From positions 1 through 38,433 of IMG/VR virus record IMGVR_UViG_3300005325_000009: a stretch of 38,433 nucleotides of DNA. The stretch is one strand, 5' to 3'. How positions within the stretch are numbered: position 1 is the first letter of the stretch; the number at the start of each line of letters is the position of its first letter. The notes under the pieces were generated by a model. The model searched no databases. It was given only the letters and a program-made list of their open reading frames with translations, and was not told the origin of the DNA. A program made the translations under genes and the position numbers. Of this stretch, positions 1-36,567 are shown in pieces. Source of the stretch: a virus (Duplodnaviria; Caudoviricetes).

Positions 1-1
1 T

Positions 2-514
2 TCCATCTATTCCCAGGCGACACTGCCCGCGCTGAAATCCGTAGGCGGCGACCTTTCCATCTATTCCCAGGCGACACTGCCCGCGCTGAAATCCGTAGGC
101 GGCGACCTTTCCATCTATTCCCAGGCGACACTGCCCGCGCTGAAATCCGTAGGCGGCGACCTTTACATCTATTCCCAGGCGACACTGCCCGCGCTGAAAT
201 CCGTAGGCGGCTACCTTTACATCAATTCCCAGGCGACACTGCAAGCCGACGCGCTGAAATCCGTAGACGGCTACCTTTCCATCAATTCCCAGGCGACACT
301 GCCCGCGCTGAAATCCGTAGGCGGCTACCTTTCCATCAATTCCCAGGCGACACTGCCCGCGCTGAAATCCGTAGACGGCTACCTTTCCATCAATTCCCAG
401 GCGACACTGCAAGCCGACGCGCTGAAATCCGTAGGCGGCGACCTTTACATCAATTCCCAGGCGACACTGCCCGCGCTGAAATCCGTAGACGGCTACCTTT
501 CCATCAATTCCCAA
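2..514 (+). repeat. In-frame tandem repeat, 9 full units plus a partial (seven of 54 nt, two of 60 nt)
   Basis: Units start at 2, 56, 110, 164, 218, 278, 332, 386, 446, 500; core tcccaggcgacactg...gcgctgaaatccgtag. Confidence 0.97.
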
Positions 515-9014: not shown

Positions 9015-10022
9015 ATGGCACTTTCAGCCAGCAATGCGGCTTTACAGCCAGCGCTATGGCGCAAACAGTTATTCGCGGATGTTCGCGATAACCTCTATAT
9101 GAATCGGTTCATGGGAACCAGTGAGCAATCCATGATCCAGGAGTTAGAGGATTTGAAGAAGGAAGCTGGTAGCAATATCAGCTTTGGCCTTGGAATGAAG
9201 TTATCCGGGTCGGGTATAACAGGTGATACTGAACTCGAAGGTTCAGAAGAGGCAATGACGGACTATGATGAGGATGTGGCTATTGATCAGATCCGTCATG
9301 CTGTGCGTTTGACCGGTAAGATGGACGAAAAGAAGAACGCGTATAATATGCGCGTATCAGCAAAGAACAGGTTATCCGACTGGTTCGCGGAGAAGATCGA
9401 ACAGGAAATATTCGATAAACTATGCGGAAAAGCCAGCTCTACTTTTGCGAATACTCCTACTATCGCGGCTTCTACTCGGTTGGTTTATGCCGGCGGGGAA
9501 GATGCGATAGCGCATATTACTTCTACCATGAAAATGGATACCAAGGTTCTTGATGCCGCTGTTCAGATAGCAAAGACGGCATCTCCCAGGATACGGCCGC
9601 TTCGTATTGGGGGGAAAGAATGGTATGTGGCGTTTTTGCATCCGTACGATATCACTAACCTTAAACAGGACCCGGTGTATAACCAGTCGGTTAGGGATGC
9701 CGGAGTAAGAGGTGAGGATAACCCGATATTTACGGGTGCTGTTTCAAGATACGGCCAGATCATTATCCACGAACACGAATATGTGTACCGTGCCAATGAT
9801 GGATCCAGTTCGTATGTTTCAAGGAACATCCTTTGCGGTCAACAGGCTGGTGTAATAGCCTGGGGCGCTCCGGTAAACTGGACGGAGAAATCGTTTGACT
9901 ACGGCAATAGCTGGGGTATCGCTTGCGGCGCTATCTTTGGCGTGATCAAGCCGTTGTTCAATTCCGTCGATTACGGAGTGGTAACGATGTATTGTGCATC
10001 AGCGGCCGCGAGTACCGCCTGA
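9015..10022 (+). CDS. Major capsid protein, N4-gp56/DUF4043-like
   Basis: L.K.AG..I.F.L...L.G..I.GD..LEG.EE, IDQ.RHAV, A...L..W, HP, NPIF.G, CG.QA motifs. Confidence 0.92.
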   Translation: MALSASNAALQPALWRKQLFADVRDNLYMNRFMGTSEQSMIQELEDLKKEAGSNISFGLGMKLSGSGITGDTELEGSEEAMTDYDEDVAIDQIRHAVRLTGKMDEKKNAYNMRVSAKNRLSDWFAEKIEQEIFDKLCGKASSTFANTPTIAASTRLVYAGGEDAIAHITSTMKMDTKVLDAAVQIAKTASPRIRPLRIGGKEWYVAFLHPYDITNLKQDPVYNQSVRDAGVRGEDNPIFTGAVSRYGQIIIHEHEYVYRANDGSSSYVSRNILCGQQAGVIAWGAPVNWTEKSFDYGNSWGIACGAIFGVIKPLFNSVDYGVVTMYCASAAASTA

Positions 10023-10082: not shown

Positions 10083-11063
10083 GTGGGATATTCTGAAAGA
10101 ATCGAAAAGAATGGTTACTGGGAAAAAGGGGTATTTGATATCCTTTATTCCTTTGTAACCAATTTTAACGCGTTTATCACTAAGATAAACACGGATACCG
10201 GAGATACCGCCATATCCGCAAGTTATCCAATAACAGATCCTTCTATCGGTAATACTTATGGCAAGGATATCCAGTATAACGCTATGCCTCAAGGCAAGGT
10301 CAATGACTTGCTTAAAGCTATCCGGACGAATTTTAATGCTGTCTTGGATATCTTAGCGGCAGATGATGGCGTTGCTGGAACAACCATATTTACTACCGAA
10401 AAGTTCAGCACTACCGAACATCTTATTGATGTTCCTAATGCCAGGATCAAGCAACGCGGAGAATGGAACGATGAGATCGCGATGTTCTTGGATGATCTGA
10501 TCGATCGGTGGAATCGGGTTTTGAGTGCGTGCGATTCCGATGCGACTCTTGATGATACCGATTATCGATCTACCTTAGGAATCGGTGATACGGTAATGAG
10601 TTCAAGTTCTTCGAGCAGCTCTTCGAGCTCATCTTCTTCAAGCTCGTCAAGCTCTTCGAGCTCCAGTTCAAGTTCTTCATCGTCGTCAAGTAGTTCATTT
10701 AGTTCTTCCAGCAGCTCTTCGAGCTCGTCAATGAGTTCTTCGTCAAGTTCATCCAGCAGTTCATCTTCTTCAAGCAGCTCTTCGAGCTCCAGCTCAGAAT
10801 CGAGTTCATCCAGCAGTTCATCTTCTTCAAGCAGCTCTTCGAGCTCCAGCTCAGAATCGAGTTCATCCAACAGCTCTTCGAGCTCGTCAATGAGTTCTTC
10901 GTCAAGCTCTTCGAGCTCCAGCTCAGAATCGAGTTCCAGTTCTTCAAGTAGTTCTTCGAGTTCTAGCAGTTCTTCGAGCAGTTCAAGTTCTTCGATGAGT
11001 TCATCCAGTTCCTCTTCTTCAAGCAGTTCCTCGAGCTCTTCGAGCTCTGAGTCAATAGGATAA
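10083..11063 (+). CDS. Putative capsid decoration/head-fibre protein with C-terminal poly-Ser tail
   Basis: Directly after the capsid gene; three N-terminal repeats ending (F/W)N..(I/L)..(I/L/C)..D; residues 173-324 almost all Ser; GGAGG RBS. Confidence 0.7.
   Translation: MGYSERIEKNGYWEKGVFDILYSFVTNFNAFITKINTDTGDTAISASYPITDPSIGNTYGKDIQYNAMPQGKVNDLLKAIRTNFNAVLDILAADDGVAGTTIFTTEKFSTTEHLIDVPNARIKQRGEWNDEIAMFLDDLIDRWNRVLSACDSDATLDDTDYRSTLGIGDTVMSSSSSSSSSSSSSSSSSSSSSSSSSSSSSSSSSFSSSSSSSSSSMSSSSSSSSSSSSSSSSSSSSSESSSSSSSSSSSSSSSSSSESSSSNSSSSSSMSSSSSSSSSSSESSSSSSSSSSSSSSSSSSSSSSMSSSSSSSSSSSSSSSSSESIG
10599..11054 (+). repeat. Poly-serine coding tract 1 (~152 codons)
   Basis: Mixed TCN/AGY codons; contains a 57-nt tandem duplication starting at 10746 and 10803. 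Confidence 0.97.
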
Positions 11064-11078
11064 TGGGAGGATAGACCA

Positions 11079-11378
11079 ATGCCAAGAATTCAAGGATTAG
11101 CGGAAAGCGGGATAAAAACCGCCGATACCCTGATCAAACCGGCACCGGGTTTTGTTTTCTCCCTTACCCTTGCTTATGAGGGGATGACTGCCGGAGAGAA
11201 GTGTACGCTGGTAGATGGCTTGACCATAGCAGGTCATGATGAAGTTGCGATCATCGTTCCAGCGGCCGCTGGTGTTCTTCAGTTGAGTTGGGTCCAGGGT
11301 AAACAGTTTGATACCGGGATCTTCTTCAATAAAGGAGCATCTGTCGGTTCGGTGTTTTTTGAGTGTACTTACAAGTAA
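11079..11378 (+). CDS. Small beta-rich putative virion protein
   Basis: 99-aa ORF, GGAGG RBS, G..FDTGIF motif, position in head module. Confidence 0.6.
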   Translation: MPRIQGLAESGIKTADTLIKPAPGFVFSLTLAYEGMTAGEKCTLVDGLTIAGHDEVAIIVPAAAGVLQLSWVQGKQFDTGIFFNKGASVGSVFFECTYK

Positions 11379-11380
11379 CC

Positions 11381-11414
11381 AAAATGAGGCCCGGGGTTGA
11401 GCACTCCGGGCCTC
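11381..11414 (+). promoter_or_regulatory. GC-rich hairpin (copy 2) before the modification cassette
   Basis: aaaat-gaggcccgggg...ctccgggcctc, similar in sequence to 10033-10065. Confidence 0.6.
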
Positions 11415-11442
11415 TACAAACATAAAAGGGGAGGCGAGTAAA

Positions 11443-13317
11443 ATGGAGAACCGAGTCTTGAAGGATCATAAGTTATTTAAACCTGCCAGTTTTGAAGAGG
11501 GTAAACATGCCGTCGTGGGCGATTGCAATGGGTTTACTATGCAAGAACGATGGGATGCTGAAACTCCCGCTTTTGCTAAAGCTATCCTGAACTATGCCGG
11601 TCCGGAAACAGCCCAAGAGATCCTGGATTATGGCTGTGGTGTTGGCCGGTTATCCAAAGAGATCATTAAACAAGATCCTACGGTGTTCGTAATCGGTACC
11701 GATGCTTCCGCGCAGATGATGGGTCAGGCTGAAGCGTATGTGAATTCCGAACGGTTCAGCACTAAACCTCCGCAGCATCTTGATCAGAAATTCGATATAG
11801 TTTACTTGGTTTATGTTCTTCAGCATGTTCCGGCGATCGAGATCCGGGAAATCCTGGCCAGGATCCATTACCACCTTAAAGATAATGGTGTTTTTATTTA
11901 CTGTTCCAGTGATTACCGTATGGCTATCCGGTATGACCAGGGTGGGTTCTTTGATGACCGGTTCCTTGGAGTTGATCTTAGAGCTGAGGTTTCCCGGTTT
12001 TTTGAACTTCAAGGACCGCTGTTTACTGAAGAGGATTATAAAAATAATCCCATATTAAGACGGATGATCACCGGGGAAACTCCAGGATGCGATAAAGGGT
12101 TGCAGCATCCGGCGTTGGTATATAAGAAACGCAAGATCATAAATACCACTTATTTCAATATGGAAGCAGCTGCGGATCCGATTATCAACAAGGAGGTAGG
12201 ACATGCCGTGCTCCAAGAAAAGGAGCAAAAGAAAGAAGAAGTAACTGGTACCGAATTTCCTCTTCAGAATCCTGCCTGGGTACGAAGTAATCCGAAAAAG
12301 ATCCTTTTGCTCAATCGTCTTGCTCCAGGGGATATCCTGGTTATGACAAACGCGATCAGAGATCTTCAAGCGGCGTACCCAGGCAAATTCTTAATTGATG
12401 TCCGCACTCCTTGTCCGGATATATTCGACAATTCTCCGTATATCCATAAACTCGAGTATGATGAAAAAGAGTACCAGAAGATCAATTCTAGGTTCTCTTC
12501 TACCACTCAGGATCAGAATAACGCGATGTTCCGGTTGATCCGGGATGGTGAAAAGGATATCCTCAACAAATTCTGCGCTATTTTGAATGAGGATATCTTG
12601 GTTATTGATATGCATTATCCTTTAATCCATTCATCGGGATTCGGAGGCCAGCATTTTGCTCAAGGGCATCGTGAGTTCTTGGAAGCCGTTTTAGGGCTAA
12701 AGATACCTCAGTATGATATCCGGCCACAGATATTTCTTTCTCAGGCAGAAAATGATTGGCCTTCCCCGGCTTTGGTTAAAGCTGAGGTTGATGGACCGTA
12801 TTGGGTGATCAACGCTGGCGCCAAAGCGGATAACACCTTAAAACAGTATCCTTTCTATCAAGAAACCGTTGATCTACTTAAAAAACATATCCCGGGTATA
12901 GTCTTGGTCCAGATCGGTCAAGAAAGCCATCTACACGCGGCGCTTGAAGGTGTGGTTGATATGCGCGGGAAGACAAGCACCCGTGAACTGTTCCGGTTGA
13001 TCGCTAAAGCTGAAGGGGTGATAAGTTGTGTGTCGTTTCCTATGCACATTGCAGCAGCGTTCTCAAAACCATGTGTAGTGGTGGCCGGCGCCAGAGAAGG
13101 CACTCGCTGGGAGTTGTACCCCAACCATCAGTTCCTTTATGTCAACGGTTGCTTGCCGTGCGCTCCGTATGATGGCTGTTGGCGAGGTACGGCGTACGAT
13201 TGCAATAATAAACGCGATGGGATACCGCTGTGTATGCTTTTGATCAGGCCTGAAGATATCGTTTGGGCTATTGAGAGGTATTACCGCGGCGGGATGTTGG
13301 AGGTGAACCGTGGATAA
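11443..13317 (+). CDS. Fusion of class I SAM methyltransferase and GT9 (heptosyltransferase-like) glycosyltransferase
   Basis: N-terminal ILDYGCGVGR, VLQH; C-terminal APGDILV.T.AIR.L, VQIG, DMRGKTS.REL..LI..A, S.PMHIAAA..KP.VV, Cys cluster. Confidence 0.88.
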   Translation: MENRVLKDHKLFKPASFEEGKHAVVGDCNGFTMQERWDAETPAFAKAILNYAGPETAQEILDYGCGVGRLSKEIIKQDPTVFVIGTDASAQMMGQAEAYVNSERFSTKPPQHLDQKFDIVYLVYVLQHVPAIEIREILARIHYHLKDNGVFIYCSSDYRMAIRYDQGGFFDDRFLGVDLRAEVSRFFELQGPLFTEEDYKNNPILRRMITGETPGCDKGLQHPALVYKKRKIINTTYFNMEAAADPIINKEVGHAVLQEKEQKKEEVTGTEFPLQNPAWVRSNPKKILLLNRLAPGDILVMTNAIRDLQAAYPGKFLIDVRTPCPDIFDNSPYIHKLEYDEKEYQKINSRFSSTTQDQNNAMFRLIRDGEKDILNKFCAILNEDILVIDMHYPLIHSSGFGGQHFAQGHREFLEAVLGLKIPQYDIRPQIFLSQAENDWPSPALVKAEVDGPYWVINAGAKADNTLKQYPFYQETVDLLKKHIPGIVLVQIGQESHLHAALEGVVDMRGKTSTRELFRLIAKAEGVISCVSFPMHIAAAFSKPCVVVAGAREGTRWELYPNHQFLYVNGCLPCAPYDGCWRGTAYDCNNKRDGIPLCMLLIRPEDIVWAIERYYRGGMLEVNRG

Positions 13318-14044
13318 TCAAATAATTTATACCCCTGAACATGTATCCCAGTTGGTTAAAGGTTGGATGAGTGACCATGATACTCGGATAAACGCGGCGG
13401 TATTCAATACCCTAAGGATCCTTAAAGCTAAAAACCCTGGAGATACTTACCTTGAAGCGTACCTTAATCATTACCAGAAACGCGGGAGCGAATTCTTCGA
13501 TTATTACCATCTTCTTTGGAGTGTTGGATCCCTGCTTGAACCGCGTAACATCATGGAGATCGGTTGTCGGACCGGGATATCGGTATGTCAGCTTTTAAGC
13601 TCAATGATGGATCCTAGTGTTCCTGCGGTGTTCCTTTTTGATATTTTCGCTGATGGGTTTACTTCTCCGGTGGTGGTTAAAATGAACCTCAGGGCGCTCA
13701 ATATCCCTCAAGATAAGGTTCATTTTATTATAGGTGATTCCGAAAAGACAGTTCCTATTTTTGTGGAAGACAGGCTTAAACAGTCTGAGTTTATTGCAGC
13801 GTATCATCCGTTAATGAATTATATCCTGGTTGATGGTAACCATGATAAACAAGCGGCAAGGGTTGATCTTGAGAATGTCGTACCTCTTCTTGCCCCTTCC
13901 GGGTTGTTGTTCTTTGACGATATCGCTCCGGATGGCTGTAATCTTTTGGATGTCTGGGATGATTTTAAAAAAACGCATGGTAATGAGTTTTATTTCCATC
14001 AGAATATGGATGGTAAAGGAATCGGCGTGGGGGTGAAACGATGA
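13310..14044 (+). CDS. Class I SAM methyltransferase (Methyltransf_24-like)
   Basis: MEIGCRTGIS, GDS, VDGNH, DL...LL..SGLL.FDD. Confidence 0.88.
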   Translation: MDNQIIYTPEHVSQLVKGWMSDHDTRINAAVFNTLRILKAKNPGDTYLEAYLNHYQKRGSEFFDYYHLLWSVGSLLEPRNIMEIGCRTGISVCQLLSSMMDPSVPAVFLFDIFADGFTSPVVVKMNLRALNIPQDKVHFIIGDSEKTVPIFVEDRLKQSEFIAAYHPLMNYILVDGNHDKQAARVDLENVVPLLAPSGLLFFDDIAPDGCNLLDVWDDFKKTHGNEFYFHQNMDGKGIGVGVKR

Positions 14045-14316
14045 TCGGAATGGGTGATCGTTTATTGTTCCTTGCCGGAGTTCCTCCGGAGAAGATGGAA
14101 GAATGTATTACCTGGGCTTTCGGCAAAGTCGATCAAGGCGAACCAATGGAAGAACTGGCGAACCGCTGGAACCAAAAGCACGGTAAGATATTCATAGTAG
14201 ATATGAAACGCGATAACCCTAAAGCGTTCATCTGGTCGATCGGGAAAGCGTATGTCGAGGAATTTTATCCCAAACGGCTGGTTACTCCTATTAAGATCTC
14301 CGGGAGGTTTAACTGA
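14041..14316 (+). CDS. Hypothetical protein
   Basis: Translationally coupled ORF inside the cassette. Confidence 0.7.
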   Translation: MIGMGDRLLFLAGVPPEKMEECITWAFGKVDQGEPMEELANRWNQKHGKIFIVDMKRDNPKAFIWSIGKAYVEEFYPKRLVTPIKISGRFN

Positions 14317-14966
14317 TGATCAATCATCCTAAGGATATTGAGTATTTTAAGCAGTACCCAGCTAAGGTAATGGAAGCACTGCATGCTCTTCATTATACGA
14401 ATATCAACGCCACAATTCCGTTCTTCGGCCCGATGTTATATTTTCTTCTGCGCGAAACCGGTGCGGCGAAGGTATTAGAAATCGGTCACGCTGAGGGGTA
14501 TACCGCTTTTTATCTGGCCAATGCTGTTAAAGATAATGCGGTACGGTATGGATACCAGGATGCCAGGTATTACGGTATTGATATCGTTCAGACTGAAACC
14601 GTTCGGAAAACTCTTGAATCTTATGGTTTACCGGTAGATATCTGGAAACTTGATTCCATAGACCTTAAACCTTCAACTTACTCTGGGATCGGGTTTGATG
14701 TCATATTCCAAGATGGCGCCCACGATACTAAGCATATCCTCCATGAAATGAATGTCCTTTACCCTCAGCTTAGAGGAGATGGTCAAGGGTATTGGATATT
14801 CCATGATTGCTTTGGTCCTGCTGAAGACGGGTTTAAAGAGGTTAAAAAGTTAATCGCGCAGGGAGTATATAAATTCGAGTTTGTCCGGCTATTCTCTCCG
14901 TATGGCATAGCGATCATGCGTAAAATCGAAGATTGGGATGAGAATAAAACAAGGTGGGTACCATGA
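14316..14966 (+). CDS. Class I SAM methyltransferase (Methyltransf_24-like)
   Basis: VLEIGHAEGYT, YGID, FDVIFQDGAH, FHD. Confidence 0.85.
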   Translation: MINHPKDIEYFKQYPAKVMEALHALHYTNINATIPFFGPMLYFLLRETGAAKVLEIGHAEGYTAFYLANAVKDNAVRYGYQDARYYGIDIVQTETVRKTLESYGLPVDIWKLDSIDLKPSTYSGIGFDVIFQDGAHDTKHILHEMNVLYPQLRGDGQGYWIFHDCFGPAEDGFKEVKKLIAQGVYKFEFVRLFSPYGIAIMRKIEDWDENKTRWVP

Positions 14967-15202
14967 CAAAAGAGGATTTACAATTAGTTCCGTATGAGGA
15001 TTTAATTGGGGAACTTGAATCTCGGTTTGATGTGTGTATTTTTGCCGGTACTAAATCCTTAGATAAAAAAGATGAAGAATCCAGACTTACTTACCATGGT
15101 GGAAAGTTCACCTGCATTGGATTGTGTGTCCATTTAATTGATATGCTTAAAAAGAGATGCCGTGAAAAAATGGAATTTTATGAGAGGGGAGATGAACTAT
15201 GA
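14954..15202 (+). CDS. Hypothetical protein
   Basis: 82-aa coupled ORF. Confidence 0.65.
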   Translation: MGTMTKEDLQLVPYEDLIGELESRFDVCIFAGTKSLDKKDEESRLTYHGGKFTCIGLCVHLIDMLKKRCREKMEFYERGDEL

Positions 15203-15360
15203 ACGGAAGAATGGCTAAAGCGGTACGCAGGAAAGCGCGGATTATGGCGAATAAGGATGCGGAAAATATGGTGTCGGAATTCAAGGCTTTAGTCAATACC
15301 AAGTTGAATTGGGTTGATCGCCTTACATTAAGCTGGAGGATAATGTGGAAAATATTCTAA
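15199..15360 (+). CDS. Small basic protein (53 aa), not in ORF track
   Basis: MNGRMAKAVRRKARIMANKDAENMVSEFKALVNTKLNWVDRLTLSWRIMWKIF; ATGA overlap, GGAG upstream. Confidence 0.6.
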   Translation: MNGRMAKAVRRKARIMANKDAENMVSEFKALVNTKLNWVDRLTLSWRIMWKIF

Positions 15361-15512
15361 AGAACATCAAAAAGATCAAGATAGATAAAAGAACTTGCGG
15401 TATCGAATCAATGTGTATCGCGGTAGATGAATGTCGTAAACGCCGCCAGTTTACGCTTAAAGGATCTGATAAGTGTCCTGGTCAAAGCCATTTTAATCTG
15501 GTAAAGAAATAA
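15345..15512 (+). CDS. Small Cys-containing protein (55 aa), not in ORF track
   Basis: GTG start after GGAGG; four Cys; TAATG overlap with next gene. Confidence 0.5.
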   Translation: MENILKNIKKIKIDKRTCGIESMCIAVDECRKRRQFTLKGSDKCPGQSHFNLVKK

Positions 15513-16096
15513 TGCCTAAATATCCCTTGATCTATTCCGTCGGTGATTCTCACTGTTGGCATGTTTGGTTGAAGGTTCCTTATGTCCGGGTCCAGACCAG
15601 TGGTCCTATGACTATGCATCGGTTCGGTAAAGATAAACCGTTCGTTCTTACAGGTATCCCGGAAGAAGCGATAGTGTGTTTCAGTTGGGGAGAAATAGAC
15701 TGCCGGTGCCATGTAAACAAGTTCCAGCCATGGCAAGAAACGATAGATGAACTGGTCAATGACTATTTCGATGCTATCGCGGCGAATATAAAAAAACCGG
15801 AAAACGCTTGGATATTTAATATAGTACCGCCTCCGCGGCGCAGCGCGGCCATAGAAAGCCCCGGATTCCCGTTCTTAGGTACTGATGAAGAACGGTTGAG
15901 TTATGTCCGGTATATGAATAAGAAACTGAGTGAATGTACTAAAAGAGGGTACACTTTTATAGATGTATATGAACATTATTGCGATCAGGACGGGTTTATG
16001 GTCCCGAGTAAAAGCGATGGACATGTTCATATTTCCGATGAGAAGCCGGTTATCCAATGGCTAGAGAGGAAACTGAATGAAATGTCCAATGTGTGA
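15512..16096 (+). CDS. SGNH/GDSL hydrolase-fold protein (possible O-acetyl esterase/transferase)
   Basis: GDSH, GEIDCR.H, N..L, FID, SDGHVH blocks. Confidence 0.85.
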   Translation: MPKYPLIYSVGDSHCWHVWLKVPYVRVQTSGPMTMHRFGKDKPFVLTGIPEEAIVCFSWGEIDCRCHVNKFQPWQETIDELVNDYFDAIAANIKKPENAWIFNIVPPPRRSAAIESPGFPFLGTDEERLSYVRYMNKKLSECTKRGYTFIDVYEHYCDQDGFMVPSKSDGHVHISDEKPVIQWLERKLNEMSNV

Positions 16097-16682
16097 GAGG
16101 GAGTTTGGTTTTGACCAACTTATTCCGGTCAAGCTCGGAGATGCTGAATACCGGCTTTGTGAATTTGATTTTATCAAAGTCAAAACATTTATCGACGGTT
16201 CGATCGCGGGGTGTACGATCAATATCACCTGGGGATCCGGAAAACTTTGTTGGAATAGTTGGGCGGCAATACGGGATCACTTGCGCAGATTTGAAATAAA
16301 AGAGGTACTGGAATTTGGTACAGGCTTATCCAGTGAACTGTTCTTGAATGAAGGAATGGATCTTATTTCTTGTGATATATTACCTCATCATATTGCCGCA
16401 TTCCAGCGGCATTTGGCGTATAAACAAGCAGTCTTTATTCCTTATCCTGACGATGACCATTTGCCGGATATTGAAGTAATATACCCTGGACGGAAATGGG
16501 ATTTCGTGTTTGTTGATGGCCCGCAGAAGAGGGCGAAAGAAGTTGCTTTAGCAATGAAACTTTCCAAACGGTTTATTTACCTTCATGATCCGAATGCCGG
16601 AGAGGAATCATTCTTTCCTAACGAGGATTGGATAATGGTTCCTGGGGATACTAAACTGTTTTGCAAAAGAGGTTTATTATGA
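16077..16682 (+). CDS. Class I SAM methyltransferase-like protein
   Basis: VLEFGTGLSS, WDFVFVDGP, LHD; short N-terminal CPMC...C segment. Confidence 0.8.
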   Translation: MKCPMCEREFGFDQLIPVKLGDAEYRLCEFDFIKVKTFIDGSIAGCTINITWGSGKLCWNSWAAIRDHLRRFEIKEVLEFGTGLSSELFLNEGMDLISCDILPHHIAAFQRHLAYKQAVFIPYPDDDHLPDIEVIYPGRKWDFVFVDGPQKRAKEVALAMKLSKRFIYLHDPNAGEESFFPNEDWIMVPGDTKLFCKRGLL

Positions 16683-17200
16683 CACAAAATCAGTTTTTGC
16701 CGGAGTATGTCCTGATTCCGCATTTTGGGAAAGATGCGTATCTTACCGGGGTAGAGATAGGGGTAATGACCGCTTGCGGCAGCGTGGCTATGCTTGACCG
16801 TATGCCAAACCTCACTCTTTACTGTATAGACCCCTGGCAATATGTTCCTGGGGTGGAGTATGAGGCCGGCCGGCCTCAGGATTACCATGATCTAAATATG
16901 GAACACACTAAGAACAGGTTGATCCCGTACGGTGAAAGAGCTAAGATTTTACATAAAACAAGTGATGAAGCAGTTATTTTTATACCTCCTCAAGTGGACT
17001 TCGTGCATATTGACGGACATCATGGGTATGAACAGGTATTGAGAGATATATCTAACTACCTGCCAAAGATAAAGTTAGGAGGAATTATCTCTGGACATGA
17101 TTATGTCCAAGTTCCTGAGGTTACCGCGGCGGTGGATAAACTGTTTTCTAAGGATCGGATAAATGTCGGGGATGACTTCCTTTGGTGGGTATATGTGTAA
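16679..17200 (+). CDS. Class I SAM methyltransferase (Methyltransf_24-like)
   Basis: GVEIGV..A, IDPW, DFVHIDGHHGYE.V..DI, GGIISGHDY, V..AV; start 16679 within ORF 16661..17200. Confidence 0.9.
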   Translation: MTQNQFLPEYVLIPHFGKDAYLTGVEIGVMTACGSVAMLDRMPNLTLYCIDPWQYVPGVEYEAGRPQDYHDLNMEHTKNRLIPYGERAKILHKTSDEAVIFIPPQVDFVHIDGHHGYEQVLRDISNYLPKIKLGGIISGHDYVQVPEVTAAVDKLFSKDRINVGDDFLWWVYV

Positions 17201-17334
17201 AAAAGATGGCAAATACCTGTTTTTATCCATACCTTTGCCAGGGTTTAAGGGGAAAGAATGAACGATCTTAAAATAAGGGCAGTAAGATACCTCGAAACGC
17301 AGGAAGAGGCGTTTCCGTTTGAAATTGAGGTAAT

Positions 17335-18159
17335 ATGGCAAAAGTGATCGAACCGCTATATTCTGACCTGAAATTAGCCCAGCAGTTTACCGCGGATACT
17401 AAGCGGGTACTCTTGGTTTTCTGGCACGGACTAGGGGATTTAATCATGTTCTTGCAGCCGTTAGCTAGACTCCGGGAGCTTTACCCAGATATCCGGATTG
17501 ACTTGGCAGTACAACGCGGCCTTTCTTTTGAAGATATTGTGCCGGAAGCCATGCTTATTGGAGGTGAAGATATGGATAAATTGGAGTCTTTAGACTACGA
17601 TATTGTAGCTAAAATCCATTTTCCTATGTCTGAAGGCCAGGTAGAATTGACTAAAGGAGAGTTCTGCTGCAAGCATGAATTGGGAATAGATCCGGTTTGC
17701 GGACATAAACTGGTACCGGGAAGGACCAGCCGGCTGATCGGAGTACATTTTAATATAACCTGTCTTCCGGATTCCTGTAATCCTGATGAGGAAACCGCGC
17801 GGCAGATCTGGGAAGAGATCCGGCTGGCCGGATGGATCCCGATTGAAACTCATTTTGAACATCCGTTCCATAACCCAGTAAATAAAAAGTTCGAGTTTGT
17901 GGATTGTACTGTAAGGAAGGCGCAAGCTCGGATATCTAACCTTACCAGTTTATTGGGTAACCTGGCGGGATTCGTAGGTGTAGTAAGCGGTAATTTCCAC
18001 TTGGCTCTGGCGATTTTGCCGAGTAATAGGATATTTTTCCTACAAAAACACTTCAAGCTCGAGTGTTTTACTCGCCTTCCCGTCGCCAGGGCCTCTATTA
18101 TGCCCGGAGAATATAAACCTGGCCAGGTATCCGCCTGGCTTAAAACATTGGAGGGGTAA
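17335..18159 (+). CDS. GT9-like (GT-B) glycosyltransferase
   Basis: HGLGDLIMF...L..LRE.YP and FVGVVSGNFHLA.A motifs. Confidence 0.8.
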   Translation: MAKVIEPLYSDLKLAQQFTADTKRVLLVFWHGLGDLIMFLQPLARLRELYPDIRIDLAVQRGLSFEDIVPEAMLIGGEDMDKLESLDYDIVAKIHFPMSEGQVELTKGEFCCKHELGIDPVCGHKLVPGRTSRLIGVHFNITCLPDSCNPDEETARQIWEEIRLAGWIPIETHFEHPFHNPVNKKFEFVDCTVRKAQARISNLTSLLGNLAGFVGVVSGNFHLALAILPSNRIFFLQKHFKLECFTRLPVARASIMPGEYKPGQVSAWLKTLEG

Positions 18160-18160
18160 A

Positions 18161-18442
18161 ATGTTATCGCAAAAACATGATCCGTTTATTAATCTAAAAG
18201 AAAACCGTAAAGATATGCCTGAGGTACCAACTGCCGGATCCGGAGTGAATAAGAAACCTGAACCGCGCGGACCGGTGGTATATATCCACAATATTGATCT
18301 TCCTTTGTCAATAGAAGACCTTAATATCTCTTTAACAGCAGAGATAAAAATAACCCCGCGAGAGATCAGGACTACGGTAACCAACGATAAGAAAGAAACT
18401 TCGTATGATCTCGAAATAACCGGGATCAGGTTTAAGAGCTGA
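18161..18442 (+). CDS. Hypothetical protein, possibly capsid staple-like
   Basis: 93 aa, beta-rich C-terminus ...SYDLEITGI; family resemblance judged by eye only. Confidence 0.5.
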   Translation: MLSQKHDPFINLKENRKDMPEVPTAGSGVNKKPEPRGPVVYIHNIDLPLSIEDLNISLTAEIKITPREIRTTVTNDKKETSYDLEITGIRFKS

Positions 18443-18473
18443 AACATTTTAGGGAAGGAGTAGGGGTGAAAGC

Positions 18474-19418
18474 ATGAGTAAATATGCGTTTATCGTCGGA
18501 GCGACAAAAGGGTATGTTCCGGAACTTTGCGCTATGCTTAACAGTTTGGATTATATAGGATCTAAGGCTGATGTCCATGTTTTAGGGATCGAGTTACCGG
18601 ATGAGTTTACCTCGCAATTTGATAAATTATCGTATAAGGTTATTTTTCATAATATCCTTGAAGATGAATGGACCGCGGCGCGCGGCCGGAGTGAAATAGT
18701 ATGCCGGAAACGGTACTGGTACGCCGCGGAGTTTGGAAAGGATTACGAGGCAGTATGTATCCTTGATGCTGATCTAGTGTTTTGCCGGGATCCGGAACAG
18801 TTTTTCGATATTGCCGCTAAAACAGGGTTTATCTTGGGGCCCAGTAAAGAACAAAATAAGGTTTATGATGACGATCATCATCTGGTAAATGTCGAAGATA
18901 AGGGGAAAACTTGGATATGGAATGTTGAACTTGGATACTATAACGATAAAGACCTTTGCAACTGTCCGGTGTTCATTGATGCTAAAAAGTGGAACGAAGC
19001 GTTAAGATTGAGTTGGGAGATATTTATCGACGGAGATTTTAAGGCTCCTGATATGGATGCTATGAACTTGGCGTTTTTACAGTATTACGGACACGATAAG
19101 ATCATAAAACTTCCTGGATTGCAGTGGCTGGGAACAAATGAGCAGATGCTTAAACCGTATATCCGCGCGGTAGAACGCCGTGGGCTTATATACACTGAAT
19201 GCGGCCTGGAGATATTCTGTTATCATGGCCAGTATTATAAACCGGTATGGCGCAAGCAACAATTGATCAACCGGCATAATTGTGCCGCAGGGTATCTCAA
19301 AACTACCGAGTGCCCGGATTCAATGGCTGAAGGGGCGATGAATCTTTTATACGCGAATTTCGTGAAGATGTTGGATTGGAAGATTATTATTGAGAAAAAA
19401 GAGTATAAAAACAGTTAA
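18474..19418 (+). CDS. GT-A fold glycosyltransferase (GT8-like)
   Basis: Y......LNSL, LDADLVF (DxD), N, D..AMN, C-terminal YHG. Confidence 0.8.
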   Translation: MSKYAFIVGATKGYVPELCAMLNSLDYIGSKADVHVLGIELPDEFTSQFDKLSYKVIFHNILEDEWTAARGRSEIVCRKRYWYAAEFGKDYEAVCILDADLVFCRDPEQFFDIAAKTGFILGPSKEQNKVYDDDHHLVNVEDKGKTWIWNVELGYYNDKDLCNCPVFIDAKKWNEALRLSWEIFIDGDFKAPDMDAMNLAFLQYYGHDKIIKLPGLQWLGTNEQMLKPYIRAVERRGLIYTECGLEIFCYHGQYYKPVWRKQQLINRHNCAAGYLKTTECPDSMAEGAMNLLYANFVKMLDWKIIIEKKEYKNS

Positions 19419-19426
19419 AGGTTAAA

Positions 19427-20536
19427 ATGCCATCCTACGGTCCTGATATTCTTACTGGTGGAATAGCTTCCGCGGATAGTTATCTTTCTGAAGGTTTTGA
19501 AGCTGATAAGGCATGTGATAATGATTTAGATCCTCGATGGCAGACAACATGTACAACATGTCCTCATTGGTGGAAGTACGATTTAGGATCGGGAGTTACA
19601 AAAATAGTAAAAAAGCTTCGTATAAATACTACTGGTTCGGGGTACAGCCTTAACGCGTTCGAATTACAAGGGTCTAATAACGACAGCGATTGGACTTCTA
19701 TACATTCTGATAATTGTGCTGATAGCAGCGATTGGCAAGAATTTACCTTTCCGAACAGTACGGCATATAGATATTATCGTATATATATATCATCTTCCTA
19801 TGCTGGAGATGGCCGCGCTAACATAGAAGAAATTGAAATGATGGAAGAAGAAGTTTCTTCTTCCAGTTCAAGCTCATCTTCTTCGTTGTCTTCTTCGTCA
19901 AGTTCTTCAAGTTTTTCATCTTCTTCAAGTTTTTCATCTTCTTCAAGTTTTTCATCTTCTTCAAGTTTTTCTTCGTCTTCTTCGTCTTCTTCGTCATCTT
20001 CAAGTTCGTTTAGTTCGAGCTCTTCAAGCTCATCATCTTCTTCTTCAAGTTCCAGCTCGAGTTCGTCAAGTTCTTCGTCTTCGTCAAGTTCTTCATCAAG
20101 CTCTTCAAGCTCGTCGTCTTCATCGAGTTCAAGTTCATCGAGCGAATCGAGCTCATCTAGTTCGTCAAATTCATCATTTAGTTCAAGTTCTTCAAGCAGC
20201 TCTTCGAGCTCCTCTTCTTTGAGCTCGTCTAGCAGTTCCAGTTCTTCGAGTTTTTCATCATCTTCTTCATCTAGCTCTTCAAGCTCAAGTTCTTCGTCTT
20301 ATAGTTTTTCAAGTTCTTCTTCATCAAGTTCTTCTTCATCAAGTTCTTCAAGTTCCAGTTTTTCATCTTCGAGTTCATCGAGCTCATCTTCTTCGAGTTC
20401 ATCGAGTAGTTCAAGTTCATCATCCAGCTCCAGTTCGTCGTCTTCATCTTATTCTTGGATCGACCGCGGAGAAACAGCGGGTAATTGGACTGATCGCGCA
20501 GAACCTGTAAGTACCTGGACACCGAGGTTATACTAA
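19427..20536 (+). CDS. Discoidin (F5/8 type C, CBM32-like) domain + poly-Ser stalk + Trp-repeat tail
   Basis: A.KA.D....RW, WWKYDLG, FELQGSNN..DWT, YRYYRI, IEEIEM; residues 144-343 Ser-rich; ends WIDR..WTDR..WTPR. Confidence 0.88.
   Translation: MPSYGPDILTGGIASADSYLSEGFEADKACDNDLDPRWQTTCTTCPHWWKYDLGSGVTKIVKKLRINTTGSGYSLNAFELQGSNNDSDWTSIHSDNCADSSDWQEFTFPNSTAYRYYRIYISSSYAGDGRANIEEIEMMEEEVSSSSSSSSSSLSSSSSSSSFSSSSSFSSSSSFSSSSSFSSSSSSSSSSSSSFSSSSSSSSSSSSSSSSSSSSSSSSSSSSSSSSSSSSSSSSSSSSESSSSSSSNSSFSSSSSSSSSSSSSLSSSSSSSSSSFSSSSSSSSSSSSSSSYSFSSSSSSSSSSSSSSSSSFSSSSSSSSSSSSSSSSSSSSSSSSSSSSSYSWIDRGETAGNWTDRAEPVSTWTPRLY
19856..20455 (+). repeat. Poly-serine coding tract 2 (~200 codons)
   Basis: Mixed Ser codons punctuated by F/L/Y/E/N; includes an 18-nt tcaagtttttcatcttct tandem. 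Confidence 0.97.
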
Positions 20537-21324
20537 TGGCATACCATCATCATCATTTAGTAGTTGATACTGGCGGATCAGGAGGCTTAGGAATAGGTAT
20601 TGATTCCGGTAATCACTTTGTTATTAATACCGGATCCGGATGGGTATCTACAAGTACAGATGATGGCCATAGCCATAAATTTAATTTAGGAGCTAATTCT
20701 TCTTTTTCAACCATATTTATCGCAGATGGAGCACTTAAAACTCTTAATCGTTCCGGACAATGGACCACAGATGAATTTGAAGATCATCATCACTATATCA
20801 ATGTCGGAATTGACGGTGGTGGCGGTTATAATGTTTTATATAAAAGTAGTGATCATACTCTTTATGCTTTTTCTGGAGTAACAATTACAACAAGCTCTTC
20901 TACTTGGACATCATCATCAAGTTCATCAAGCTCTAGTAATTCTTCTTCTAGCTCAAGTCTTTCTTTCAGCAGCTCTTCGAGCTCATCTTCGTCGAGTTCA
21001 AGCAGTTCTTCAAGTTTCAGCTCCTCATCATCGTCTTCATCTTCCAGTAGTTCTTCGAGCTCTTCAAGTTCGTTTAGTTCGAGCTCTTCAAGCTCATCAT
21101 CTTCTTCTTCAAGTTCCAGCTCGAGTTCGTCAAGTTCTTCGTCTTCGTCAAGTTCTTCATCAAGCTCTTCAAGCTCGTCAAGCTCGAGTTTTTCTTCATC
21201 CAGTTCATCTTCTTCATCGAGTTCGTCGAGTTTTAGTTCGAGTTCTTCAAGCAGCCAGTTGCCATGGTCAGATCGCCCGGAAAGCAGTATGGGGTTCATT
21301 GACCGGCCGAAACGGTTTCCATAA
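20536..21324 (+). CDS. His-rich domain + poly-Ser stalk + W/FxDR tail
   Basis: YHHHHL, DGHSH, DHHHY clusters; residues 126-240 Ser-rich; ends WSDRP..FIDRP; TAATG coupling. Confidence 0.8.
   Translation: MAYHHHHLVVDTGGSGGLGIGIDSGNHFVINTGSGWVSTSTDDGHSHKFNLGANSSFSTIFIADGALKTLNRSGQWTTDEFEDHHHYINVGIDGGGGYNVLYKSSDHTLYAFSGVTITTSSSTWTSSSSSSSSSNSSSSSSLSFSSSSSSSSSSSSSSSSFSSSSSSSSSSSSSSSSSSFSSSSSSSSSSSSSSSSSSSSSSSSSSSSSSSSSSSSSSFSSSSSSSSSSSSSFSSSSSSSQLPWSDRPESSMGFIDRPKRFP
20911..21255 (+). repeat. Poly-serine coding tract 3 (~115 codons)
   Basis: Mixed Ser codons; 21061-21179 is identical to 19997-20115. Confidence 0.97.
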
Positions 21325-21333
21325 GGAGGGAAT

Positions 21334-21999
21334 ATGTTATTAAGCGCGTTTAAGACTTATGTAAAATACGATTTCAAAAGGACAGATAAAGATACTGAGT
21401 TAGTTCAGGCGTATAACGATTCTATATTTTATGTTTCAGTACTGATCCCCCATGGAGGGTATAAGTACCAGAGTTATGTAAACACCGCAATAGGCCAGCC
21501 GAATTATCCTCTTCCGAATAACTTGATTCACCTTCTTCATCCGATCAGGTTGTTGGAAGGATCCGGAATAAACGATTCAGGGTATCCTTTGGATCATATA
21601 ACCAAAGAGGAATATGATGAAGAAGAGCCAAACCCTAACCGGACAAGTCCATCTACAGGAAAACCGGAACAATACTGTATCTTCTCCCGGGCAATATTAC
21701 CTACTCCGATTCCGGATAAAGCCACTTATCTGTTTGAGATAAACTGGAGTAAATTGCCTACTTTACTATCCGCGGCTGCGGATATTCCAGGGTTAGGTAA
21801 TGAATGGGATGAGATATTAAAATGGATGGTTCTTGATCGGCTTAATGCCGGATTAGAATTGTTCCAAGAAGCTGAATACTGGAGATCTAAATACCAGGAT
21901 TCAGAAGGTAATCCAATTGGCCAACTTCTCCGGCTATTGGATATTGAGCGAGATCGCGAAAGTAAATCGATAAGTCAAGTAAGTAATAATAATTTATAA
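21334..21999 (+). CDS. Probable head-tail adaptor protein
   Basis: Y.LP, G.P..Y, P.PD..Y motifs; position before tail genes. Confidence 0.75.
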   Translation: MLLSAFKTYVKYDFKRTDKDTELVQAYNDSIFYVSVLIPHGGYKYQSYVNTAIGQPNYPLPNNLIHLLHPIRLLEGSGINDSGYPLDHITKEEYDEEEPNPNRTSPSTGKPEQYCIFSRAILPTPIPDKATYLFEINWSKLPTLLSAAADIPGLGNEWDEILKWMVLDRLNAGLELFQEAEYWRSKYQDSEGNPIGQLLRLLDIERDRESKSISQVSNNNL

Positions 22000-35933: not shown

Positions 35934-36197
35934 ATGGAGAAGAGTCTTATAGTAGTTCAGGTAACCCGAAGGGGTCATTTATGTGCGGGATGTCAAGGAA
36001 AAATACCGGGTCGGCATGCGGCTATTGCTTTAGTAACCAAGGAGAGGATCAATGGGAAAGAAGAAAAGTTTGTTGCTTATTTCCATAATATCGATTGTTA
36101 TAACGGTTATGAGTTCCGGAACATCTATGGCGCGGGAGCGGCCTGTGATGTTGGACCAGCAAGCTGTTCGTGCGATAATCGGGGAAGCCGGTGGTGA
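35934..36197 (+). CDS. Putative zinc-finger protein
   Basis: CAGC..KI...FH..C; GGGG RBS; 3' part overlaps the next gene. Confidence 0.55.
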   Translation: MEKSLIVVQVTRRGHLCAGCQGKIPGRHAAIALVTKERINGKEEKFVAYFHNIDCYNGYEFRNIYGAGAACDVGPASCSCDNRGSRW

Positions 36198-36567
36198 GGG
36201 GTACCGCGGGATGCTGGCGGTAGCATGCGGGATCCGGAACCGGGGATCGTTAAAAGGGGTTTATGGATTATACGCTAAGCATGTTGATCGCGCTCCAAAG
36301 AGGATATGGGAATTAGCCTGGAAGGCGTGGAAAGAGTCATTAATCCAAGATATTGTCCATGGCGCCAAAGATTGGGAAGGGATCAAGTTTAAACGGCCGT
36401 ACTGGGCTAAGGATATGGTAATTACCGCGGTTGAGGGTGGAAATGTTTTTTATAAGAATATCCGGGTGGTTCAGGAATGGCGTGATGATCAGGGAAACCG
36501 GTGGCGGACTGATCAGGAAGGTAATTTATATGATCGAGATGGGAATAGAGTGCGTAGAGAAGGATGA
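36052..36567 (+). CDS. SleB/Hydrolase_2-like cell wall hydrolase with N-terminal signal/anchor
   Basis: AIIGEAGGEG..GMLAVA..IRNR, GA, P.WA, G..VFY; KKKSLLLISIISIVITV N-terminus. Confidence 0.8.
   Translation: MGKKKSLLLISIISIVITVMSSGTSMARERPVMLDQQAVRAIIGEAGGEGYRGMLAVACGIRNRGSLKGVYGLYAKHVDRAPKRIWELAWKAWKESLIQDIVHGAKDWEGIKFKRPYWAKDMVITAVEGGNVFYKNIRVVQEWRDDQGNRWRTDQEGNLYDRDGNRVRREG

What the first reader, a model, noticed from the sequence alone, without database searches (positions are those of the whole stretch)
10083..21324. Candidate virion glycan-coat system: three poly-serine scaffold proteins bracket a glycosyltransferase/methyltransferase cassette
Seen: between capsid and adaptor genes lie three proteins with about 152, 200 and 115 near-pure Ser residues. 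They flank two GT9-like domains, one GT8-like enzyme, five SAM methyltransferase domains and an SGNH protein. Mixed TCN/AGY codons point to selection for serine rather than simple slippage. Known: serine-rich repeat adhesins are O-glycosylated by adjacent GTs, and some mycobacteriophages O-glycosylate Ser of virion proteins with their own GTs. Inference: this phage builds mucin-like bottle-brush fibres carrying methylated/acylated glycans, tipped with lectin or metal-binding heads, for shielding or adhesion. No sugar-nucleotide synthesis genes are visible, so donors would come from the host.
Basis: partly seen in the sequence, partly recalled or inferred. Interest (0 to 1): 0.88.

Follow-up and report, generated by a model that had tools for sequence, protein, structure and literature searches.

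The report
Phage poly-serine bristles with glycosylation cassette
An uncultured short-tailed phage carries runs of 110-200 serines on three proteins in its particle-gene block, around a cassette of sugar-transferase-like and methyltransferase genes that travels with such runs across many unrelated phages, so it likely sugar-coats its own particle with long bristles, though no sugar has been measured.

Summary
Between the capsid and adaptor genes of a podovirus-like phage lie three poly-Ser proteins, with tracts of 150, 198 and 115 residues that are 93-95% Ser and use all six codons. Between them sit two GT9-like domains, a GT8-like enzyme, five methyltransferase domains and an SGNH-like protein.

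The link recurs widely. Poly-Ser lies on 65 of 75 viral records with the GT9-like family (47 of 56 dereplicated), against roughly 0.02% of viral contigs overall. Elsewhere it is fused to major capsid, tail-tube and decoration proteins. Across 65 tracts (12,777 residues) there are 4 Pro and 9 Gly, with evenly spaced Phe/Leu/Ile.

Best reading (0.67): the phage O-glycosylates these tracts into virion bristles.

- pS1 has an anchor-like domain and a free tail, not a head.
- pS2 and pS3 are accessory.
- Relatives do carry sugar-nucleotide genes.
- Distant capsid relatives carry other GT cassettes without poly-Ser.

No glycan, virion location or host is shown. This scan noted the same theme earlier on other genomes; my searches found no paper on it.

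The parts
9015..10022 (+). Major capsid protein (context, left boundary)
   Evidence: Phage_capsid_3 E 2e-53, phrog_334
10083..11063 (+). pS1: 172-aa domain of three helical repeats (likely virion anchor) plus a free 150-aa poly-Ser tail (nt 10599-11048) ending ESIG
   Evidence: Orthologues next to the capsid gene carry tails of about 70-180 Ser. Homologous domains occur alone or fused to tail-fibre or head-decoration-type appendages. No fold match.
11079..11378 (+). 99-aa protein conserved directly after pS1; function not determined
   Evidence: Cluster of 15 loci; no Pfam or PHROG hit
11443..13317 (+). SAM methyltransferase (aa ~43-158) fused to a GT9-like GT-B glycosyltransferase (aa 283-624); the most constant cassette member and the candidate initiating enzyme
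   Evidence: Pfam Methyltransf_12/25 and Glyco_transf_9; best PDB hit WaaF E 5e-5; 75 viral loci
13310..14044 (+). Methyltransf_24 methyltransferase; fused to the GT9 domain in some relatives
   Evidence: Pfam E 1.5e-12; fusions seen
14041..14316 (+). 91-aa protein of unknown function, conserved in close relatives
14316..14966 (+). Methyltransf_24 / COMT-like O-methyltransferase
   Evidence: Pfam E 1.7e-10; profile hits are mostly O-methyltransferases
15512..16096 (+). SGNH/GDSL-like protein with Ser13, Asp169 and His173 invariant; likely O-acyl transfer or removal
   Evidence: Alignment of 8; Atlas lead; no Pfam or PDB hit
16077..16682 (+). COMT-like SAM methyltransferase
   Evidence: Profile hits to O-methyltransferases, best E 0.002
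16661..17200 (+). Methyltransf_24 methyltransferase
   Evidence: Pfam E 1.7e-14; best PDB hit 6g7d E 2e-8
17335..18159 (+). Second, divergent GT9-like glycosyltransferase of a virus-dominated family
18161..18442 (+). 93-aa protein of unknown function, conserved in close relatives
18474..19418 (+). GT-A-fold, GT8-like glycosyltransferase (DAD motif; PDMD where GT8 has DQD)
   Evidence: 240 homologues; model pLDDT 94; Foldseek hits WbbM, LARGE1, LgtC, glycogenin, GlyE; none found in GTDB genomes
19427..20536 (+). pS2: F5/8 type C (discoidin) head, 198-aa poly-Ser stalk (nt 19856-20449), C-terminal W-x-D-R repeat tag
20536..21324 (+). pS3: His-rich (HxH, weak YmaF-like) head, 115-aa poly-Ser stalk (nt 20911-21255), C-terminal W/F-x-D-R tag
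21334..21999 (+). SU10-type head-tail adaptor (context, right boundary)
   Evidence: Pfam E 1.3e-7

Best explanation
The phage likely O-glycosylates the long serine tracts of three probable particle-surface proteins with its own late-gene cassette, which would cover the virion with sugar-coated bristles. Inferred steps: (1) pS1 docks on the particle through its three-repeat helical domain and leaves a ~150-Ser tail free. pS2 and pS3 dock through a C-terminal W-x-D-R tag and hold a lectin-like or His-rich head at the end of a Ser stalk. (2) The GT9-like domain of 11443-13317, the most constant cassette member, attaches the first sugar to Ser from a host nucleotide-sugar in the cytoplasm. (3) The second GT9-like and the GT8-like enzymes extend the glycan; the O-methyltransferases and the SGNH-like protein cap or acylate it. 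(4) Glycosylation keeps the tract soluble and extended, about 40-70 nm for 115-200 residues if stretched. The variable cassette changes surface chemistry between phages, most likely to shield the particle or stop it sticking to minerals, matrix and non-host cells. Shown: gene content, folds, tract composition, co-occurrence. Not shown: glycan, donor, virion location, function.
For: Co-occurrence. GT9-like family: 65 of 75 viral records carry poly-Ser (at least 24 Ser in 30 aa) in the DNA held, 47 of 56 after 90% dereplication, and 32 of 33 at 44% identity or more. GT8-like family: 27 of 31 viral loci; 12 of the 31 are near-copies of one phage. Metagenome scan: 16 of 19 loci of 10 kb or more, partly the same contigs. 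Rough background: a Ser-codon pattern found 27 of 2.9 million contigs and caught 3 of the 65 known records, which implies about 600 contigs, or ~0.02%.

Capsid-matched contrast. At 49% capsid identity or more, poly-Ser was present in 25 of 25 loci with at least 1.5 kb downstream, and the GT9 family in 15 of 15 with at least 4 kb. At 34-40% identity, 0 of 49 loci had poly-Ser or any of the window families tested; 25 of them have at least 4 kb downstream.

Reverse test. Of 8 pattern-selected records at least 60% complete, 7 have a GT: 4 clear and 3 weak GT2 hits below cut-off.

Carriers. Poly-Ser is appended to 48 sequence-unrelated carrier clusters. These include a major capsid protein (L065), a tail tube (L013), head decoration (L075), a weak cement hit (L072), baseplate and tail-fibre-type proteins.

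Selection on Ser. 65 tracts, 12,777 aa: 11,756 Ser, 4 Pro, 9 Gly, 38 Thr, against 256 Phe, 228 Leu and 120 Ile. Pro and Phe/Leu are each one transition from TCN.

Accessory genes in relatives are glycan-building ones. The methyltransferases resemble O-methyltransferases.

Precedent. Mycobacteriophage GTs glycosylate capsid and tail tube (passages in PMC12363180, PMC13445384, PMC12619734). Chlorovirus A064R joins two GTs and a sugar O-methyltransferase (PMC7826918). Bare Ser42 self-assembles in vitro (PMC12926022 section 6), so longer tracts would plausibly need modification.
Against: No glycan, virion proteome, isolate or host: neither GT had a match in 50,697 GenBank phages.

Co-occurrence within the capsid clade may be one inherited event; independence rests on the different phage architectures.

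GT cassettes are not tied to poly-Ser in general. Six distant capsid relatives without poly-Ser carry GT8 or GT2 in the same slot (30 of 110 downstream ORFs scanned).

Ten of 75 GT9 records fall below the poly-Ser threshold, including one complete record (L178, which has a 24%-Ser protein). So do 11 of 14 cellular loci, within 10 kb. Twelve of the 23 pattern-selected records searched showed no GT, mostly fragments.

The GT9's best solved relative is an LPS heptosyltransferase, and no protein-O-GT was hit.

The pS1 domain has no known fold (pLDDT 65). Exclusion of Pro/Gly with regular hydrophobes also fits an unmodified ordered structure.
Confidence: 0.67

Rival explanations
1. The poly-Ser tracts are unmodified structural elements (self-assembling or hydrated stalks, with the spaced Phe/Leu/Ile as a packing code). 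The cassette glycosylates other virion residues, as the poly-Ser-free cassettes in the same slot presumably do.
For: Pro/Gly exclusion. Hydrophobes are evenly spaced: 5.6% of 603 gaps are 5 residues or less, against 30% in 1000 shuffles. Ser42 self-assembles. GT8 + methyltransferase cassettes sit in the same slot without poly-Ser. Bacterial poly-Ser linkers of unknown function exist (PMC2699552 passages).
Against: It does not explain why one enzyme family tracks poly-Ser across unrelated phages. Free C-terminal tails link nothing. Ser is kept over Thr, Ala and Gly, which points to its hydroxyl.
Confidence: 0.15
2. The cassette modifies the host's LPS or surface polysaccharide (receptor masking or serotype conversion), and poly-Ser is only a neighbour.
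For: The closest solved relative of the GT9 domain is WaaF. GT8 includes LPS enzymes. Relatives carry O-antigen-type sugar genes. One distant capsid relative has an O-antigen ligase in this slot (L253).
Against: The genes are co-oriented, often overlapping, and sit inside the structural block. No integrase was found in the window. There are no clear membrane segments: the highest 19-residue hydropathy is 1.82 and the rest are under 1.6. The Asp of WaaF's NDSG motif is Val in the family. The GT8-like family was not found in GTDB genomes and the GT9-like one at only 14 loci.
Confidence: 0.09
3. A host enzyme (glycosyltransferase or kinase) places the first group on Ser, and the phage enzymes only extend and cap it.
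For: All three GTs resemble glycan-extending enzymes. No known protein-O-GT was hit.
Against: Some poly-Ser phages carry the GT9-like domain as the only window-type family (L151, L152, L155, L157-L161). That fits an initiating role.
Confidence: 0.05
4. The cassette hypermodifies phage DNA.
For: Phage GT-A and GT-B enzymes can glycosylate DNA bases (10.1101/2023.12.21.572611 passages). PHROGs labels two of the methyltransferases 'DNA methyltransferase' (phrog_2675).
Against: No thymidylate synthase, 5mYOX/TET or polymerase was found in the window. That paper treats GTs without such neighbours as less likely DNA modifiers. The folds match glycan GTs and O-methyltransferases. The poly-Ser link would be unexplained.
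Confidence: 0.04

Closest known systems
Mycobacteriophage virion O-glycosylation (Che8, Corndog, Myrna; Freeman et al. 2023, not held, known from passages in PMC12363180, PMC13445384, PMC12619734)
   Same: Phage-encoded GTs modify virion proteins. The acceptors are capsid and tail-tube C-termini, the same protein types that carry poly-Ser tails in L065 and L013.
   Different: Here there are dedicated tracts of 110-200 Ser (up to ~850 in relatives), GT9-like and GT8-like families with no match in GenBank phages, five methyltransferases and an SGNH-like protein. Glycosylation is not demonstrated.
Chlorovirus PBCV-1 capsid glycosylation (A064R, A111/114R; PMC7826918 passages)
   Same: A virus-encoded GT fused to a sugar O-methyltransferase, and a GT8-like domain whose models include LgtC, GlyE and WbbM, the same structural neighbours as.
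   Different: A eukaryotic giant virus with N-linked glycans at a few capsid sites and no homopolymer acceptor. Sequence homology was not tested.
Serine-rich repeat proteins of streptococci and lactobacilli with GtfA/GtfB, Gly enzymes and accessory Sec (recalled)
   Same: A head on a long Ser-rich stalk with adjacent GTs; GlyE is a structural neighbour of the GT8-like protein.
   Different: Cell-wall adhesins with Ser-X dipeptide repeats, GT4 initiators and SecA2/SecY2 export. None of these was found here.
Bacterial autotransporter heptosyltransferases Aah/TibC (recalled)
   Same: GT9-related GT-B enzymes that place sugar on protein Ser, a precedent for a GT9-like initiator.
   Different: The family profile hit only WaaF and 3tov in the PDB at E up to 1. 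The acceptor there is a folded beta-helix.
Polyserine linkers of Teredinibacter, Saccharophagus and Cellvibrio carbohydrases (PMC2699552 passages)
   Same: Near-pure Ser tracts in prokaryotic proteins.
   Different: About 40 residues at 80-83% Ser, linking enzyme modules. Here the tracts are 3-20 times longer, about 92% Ser, often free tails, and next to a GT cassette.

Membership tests
Self-glycosylating virions (mycobacteriophage type) | Phage-encoded glycosyltransferases | tested here: met
Self-glycosylating virions (mycobacteriophage type) | Acceptors are virion proteins | tested here: inconclusive
   Gene position and homologue fusions point that way; pS1-3 themselves are not shown in particles
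Self-glycosylating virions (mycobacteriophage type) | O-linked glycan on virion protein, dependent on the phage GT | not testable with these tools
   Needs mass spectrometry and gene deletion
Self-glycosylating virions (mycobacteriophage type) | GTs homologous to Che8 gp110 / Corndog gp38 | tested here: not met
   tblastn of the GT9 domain and of the GT8-like protein found no match in 50,697 GenBank phage records; 17335-18159 was not searched there
CAZy GT9 (WaaC/WaaF heptosyltransferases) | Pfam Glyco_transf_9 above cut-off, GT-B with N-terminal G-D motif | tested here: met
   11443-13317: 37.4 bits against a cut-off of 22; G14 and D15 invariant. 17335-18159 has no Pfam hit and only profile/Atlas support
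CAZy GT9 (WaaC/WaaF heptosyltransferases) | Asp of the donor-site (N/V)D(S/T)G motif (role recalled) | tested here: not met
   Val replaces it in both families, so ADP-heptose as donor is not safe to assume
CAZy GT8 | GT-A fold with DxD | tested here: met
   D98-A99-D100 invariant in 60 sequences; fold hits
CAZy GT8 | Invariant D/E-Q-D motif (PMC7826918) | tested here: not met
   The family has P-D-M-D; the window protein scores 15.9 bits against a cut-off of 24.3. GT8-like, not filed as GT8
SGNH/GDSL | GDS nucleophile motif and D-x-x-(x)-H | tested here: met
   Invariant in 8 sequences
SGNH/GDSL | Profile or fold match | tested here: inconclusive
   No Pfam or PDB hit; Atlas 0.95 to a cluster with 41% Lipase_GDSL; not folded
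Serine-rich repeat protein system | GtfA/GtfB (GT4) initiator and accessory Sec genes | tested here: not met
   No such Pfam hit among the window ORFs scanned
Serine-rich repeat protein system | Ser-X dipeptide repeats and LPxTG anchor | tested here: not met
   The tracts are homopolymeric, and the C-termini are ESIG or W-x-D-R tags
Autotransporter heptosyltransferase (Aah/TibC) | Sequence homology to TibC | tested here: inconclusive
   Not among the PDB hits of the family profile at E up to 1; the GT9 domain was not folded
DNA hypermodification clusters | Neighbouring 5mYOX/TET or thymidylate-synthase-like gene | tested here: not met
   None in the Pfam/PHROG scans of window ORFs; the record may be slightly incomplete

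The most novel reading that the evidence does not exclude
A widespread class of uncultured tailed phages builds a genetically programmed glycocalyx. Portable poly-Ser modules of 40 to about 900 residues, punctuated by regularly spaced hydrophobic residues, are appended to capsid, decoration, tube and fibre proteins. A virus-specific GT9-like enzyme glycosylates them densely and works as a cytoplasmic poly-Ser O-glycosyltransferase, and swappable cassettes diversify the glycan. The resulting bristles could be as long as the particle is wide, or several times longer.
Probability: 0.45. Interest if true: 0.9.

Novelty: new variant of a known kind. Interest (0 to 1): 0.72.

Why it matters
Virion glycosylation in phages is known from a few mycobacteriophages with small acceptor sites. 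If this reading is right, some hundreds of environmental phage lineages carry mucin-scale sugar brushes. That would affect adsorption, transport through sediments, stability and recognition by host or predator lectins. It would also explain a share of the many phage GTs that have no DNA-modification neighbours (about 65% of ~25,000 GT contigs in 10.1101/2023.12.21.572611). It names a directly testable enzyme-substrate pair: a soluble GT9-like domain and a synthetic Ser-rich peptide. Such an enzyme could be useful for making bottle-brush glycoproteins in bacteria.

Tried and rejected
Triplet slippage or artefact: rejected. Codons are mixed, orthologues keep the tracts with different lengths, and contigs of the one holding run agree letter for letter, although that run may be the source. 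The Glu/Leu/Asp-rich antisense ORFs over the tracts are mirror frames.

pS1 fold: the model is mediocre (pLDDT 65). The viral library gave no hit at E up to 0.001, and the PDB gave only generic helical bundles (best Z 9.3, rmsd 3.6, 155 aligned, below the level trusted for bundles).

A pS1-capsid complex prediction was never run because the queue was full, so binding is untested.

Host: not found. A 5.4-kb cassette fragment lies in an Omnitrophota MAG (L120, 55% over 84 aa). But 401 genomes of that phylum gave only 3 distant capsid hits (two at 29-31% over the full length, one 58-aa piece at 41%), so the fragment may be mis-binned.

Expression: no RNA holder listed.

Terminal repeat: the apparent one is a local tandem repeat, so completeness is unproven. 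Complete relatives are about 40 kb.

The WSN pattern was unspecific in cellular genomes, so only translated viral hits were counted.

The GT9 tree is a quick one (73 of 90 rows after dropping duplicates and 2 short rows): 13 label changes against 17.1 shuffled, 5 of 500 as low. It shows clustering only.

Single-sequence PDB searches of two GTs found nothing. Freeman 2023 is not held.

Full report
Setting. The window is a 38.4-kb virus record; the one listed run that holds it is a groundwater metagenome and may be its source. It has a terminase, a P22-like portal, a Phage_capsid_3 capsid, an SU10 adaptor and large internal-type proteins, so it is podovirus-like. No integrase, polymerase or nucleotide-modification gene was found beyond a Dam-like methylase. 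The record has no terminal repeat; complete relatives are about 40 kb.

Observation. It is confirmed. The three tracts are 150, 198 and 115 residues long with 142, 184 and 108 Ser, use all six codons, and never repeat one codon more than three times. They grow by 18-57-bp duplications, and pS2 and pS3 share 119 identical bases. That shared piece has excess depth, so the lengths are approximate. The enzymes check out with different strength. The GT9 in 11443-13317 passes Pfam. The protein at 17335-18159 is GT9-like by profile and Atlas. The protein at 18474-19418 folds confidently as GT-A near WbbM, LARGE1, LgtC and GlyE but lacks the GT8 Gln. The five methyltransferase domains resemble O-methyltransferases; that the top hit 6g7d is the sugar methyltransferase MeT1 is recalled, and the paper I read on MeT1 (PMC9883506 passages) does not give that code. 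The protein at 15512-16096 has SGNH motifs only.

Anatomy of the Ser proteins. pS1 is a 172-aa domain of three helical repeats followed by a free tail. A profile search found 189 relatives. Of the 150 listed, most are stand-alone proteins of about 165-180 aa, only 3 have a run of 8 or more Ser, and some are fused to tail-fibre, head-decoration or tail-type appendages. It therefore looks like a display anchor that carries poly-Ser in this clade; this is inference. pS2 and pS3 are head-stalk-tag proteins. Their C-terminal W-x-D-R repeat also ends five poly-Ser proteins with unrelated heads in other phages. It occurs in 7 of 102 poly-Ser ORFs (two are the window's own) and in 0 of 3,264 other ORFs, which suggests a docking tag. 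pS2 and pS3 are accessory: the closest relative L272, and L035, go straight from the GT8-like gene to other genes.

Co-occurrence, enzyme to tract. The GT9-like family gave 75 viral loci. Poly-Ser lies on 65 of these records, 47 of 56 after dereplication, and 32 of 33 at 44% identity or more. Of the ten misses, three have shorter tracts (20-23 of 30), six are records 8-47% complete, and one is complete with a 24%-Ser protein. The GT8-like family gave 27 of 31, with 12 near-copies of one phage among the 31. Two of its four misses have poly-Ser elsewhere on the record. A metagenome scan gave 16 of 19 loci of 10 kb or more, and 25 of all 79 including short fragments. A rough capture-recapture puts poly-Ser in about 0.02% of viral contigs. 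The carriers fall into 48 sequence clusters; 19 of 48 representatives have a PHROG hit, mostly to head or tail families.

Co-occurrence, tract to enzyme. A codon pattern found 27 contigs. I searched 23 of them for GT2 and GT9, leaving out 4 that had short runs or did not look like tailed phages. Eleven show a GT. Among the 8 records at least 60% complete, 7 do, three of them only weakly. Some use other GTs: GT4, GT2, GT11 (L070, L080, L081).

Capsid-matched control. At 49% capsid identity or more, every locus with enough DNA has poly-Ser (25 of 25) and the GT9 family (15 of 15). At 34-40%, none of 49 has either. Against the simple picture, six of those distant relatives carry a different GT8 or GT2 gene, mostly with a TPR protein and a methyltransferase, in the same slot (30 of 110 ORFs scanned). 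The slot is thus a general home for modifying cassettes, and the specific link is between this enzyme family and poly-Ser.

Where the enzymes live. The GT8-like family was not found in 185,579 prokaryote genomes. The GT9-like one was found at 14 loci, 13 of them at 30-37% identity and 3 with poly-Ser nearby. Neither matches 50,697 GenBank phages. The listed Atlas clusters for 17335-18159 are 96-100% viral. These are virus-centred families, not a freshly captured LPS locus. The GT9-like domain is the most constant member: in several poly-Ser phages it is the only window-type family, which makes it the best candidate for the first step. Around it the cassette varies, and relatives add UDP-GlcNAc 2-epimerase, DegT, NAD-epimerases, cytidylyltransferase, LicD and radical SAM genes.

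What the tracts are selected for. In 65 distinct tracts Ser is 92%. Pro (4) and Gly (9) are nearly absent, while Phe, Leu and Ile total 604 and are spaced more evenly than in shuffles (5.6% against 30% short gaps). Flexible linkers and mucins would be expected to collect Pro, Gly and Thr. The pattern fits an acceptor for an enzyme that needs Ser hydroxyls in a regular backbone. It also fits an unmodified ordered structure, which is the main rival. Bare Ser42 self-assembles in vitro (PMC12926022 abstract and section 6), which argues that tracts of 150-900 need a solubilising modification.

Mechanism. The most likely course is late cytoplasmic O-glycosylation of the tracts by the GT9-like enzyme, extension by the other two GTs, O-methyl and acyl capping, and display on the particle as bristles and headed stalks (0.67). 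The donor is unknown; the WaaF donor-site Asp is replaced by Val. Shielding or anti-sticking is a better guess than immune evasion for a groundwater phage, but function is the weakest step. Rivals are unmodified structural poly-Ser (0.15), host surface modification (0.09), host-initiated glycosylation (0.05) and DNA modification (0.04).

Novelty. It works like mycobacteriophage and chlorovirus self-glycosylation (passages; the primary mycobacteriophage paper was not available) but is not a member by enzyme homology or acceptor type. Five searches (listings and abstract starts only) showed no paper on phage poly-Ser with GT cassettes. The library lacks most subscription journals, and I did not see bioRxiv supplements such as the GT contig tables of 10.1101/2023.12.21.572611. 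Eight earlier notes of this scan propose the same theme on other genomes, several naming other GT families. They are unchecked and not counted as support. A sequence look-up with this GT9 domain found none.

Verdict. A real, conserved and widespread module; a new variant of a known kind; interest 0.72, pending one simple biochemical test.

Noticed in passing
window 1-513: A 54/57-bp tandem repeat (9.3 copies) that reads open in one + frame as an 18-19-aa Leu-rich repeat, continuing past the repeat; the gene start lies before the window edge.
   Followed up: partly
window 27860-35248: A 2462-aa protein among the internal virion genes with a zeta-toxin/ATPase-like domain (aa 624-778) and a RadC/JAB domain (aa 1033-1142); it resembles an injected multi-domain 'polyvalent' protein (label recalled).
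   Followed up: no
L251, L262, L224, L258, L225, L228, L261 (after the capsid gene): A second, poly-Ser-free cassette (TPR protein + Methyltransf_23, with GT8 in five of them) in the capsid-adaptor slot of distant relatives; it may be another virion-modification system.
   Followed up: partly
L026:14782-17703 and relatives (L020, L023, L037, L040, L041, L343): A 973-aa protein that is 88% Ser (about 850 residues) between a 20-aa N-terminus and a C-terminal F-x-D-x-T-x-x-Y repeat, a second type of tag.
   Followed up: partly
L046, L049, L011, L184, L107 poly-Ser tracts: In some lineages the interrupting residues are Cys and Arg instead of Phe/Leu (up to 24 Cys in 132 aa), which could allow disulfide cross-links or charge patterning.
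   Followed up: no
L109:7005-9101, L110:11218-13680: Cellular GT9-family homologues in an Acidobacteriota MAG and in Rhodocytophaga sit next to non-phage proteins with Ser tracts, one of them protease-like; this may be a bacterial use of the same pairing.
   Followed up: no
L120 (Ca. Aceula meridiana MAG, 5.4-kb contig): A cassette fragment closely related to the phage ones inside an Omnitrophota bin; either a host hint or mis-binning.
   Followed up: partly
L253:12298-13623: An O-antigen ligase-like gene right after the capsid gene in a distant relative.
   Followed up: no
window 36052-36567: A weak endolysin-like hit (PHROG E 0.004) far from the structural block.
   Followed up: no
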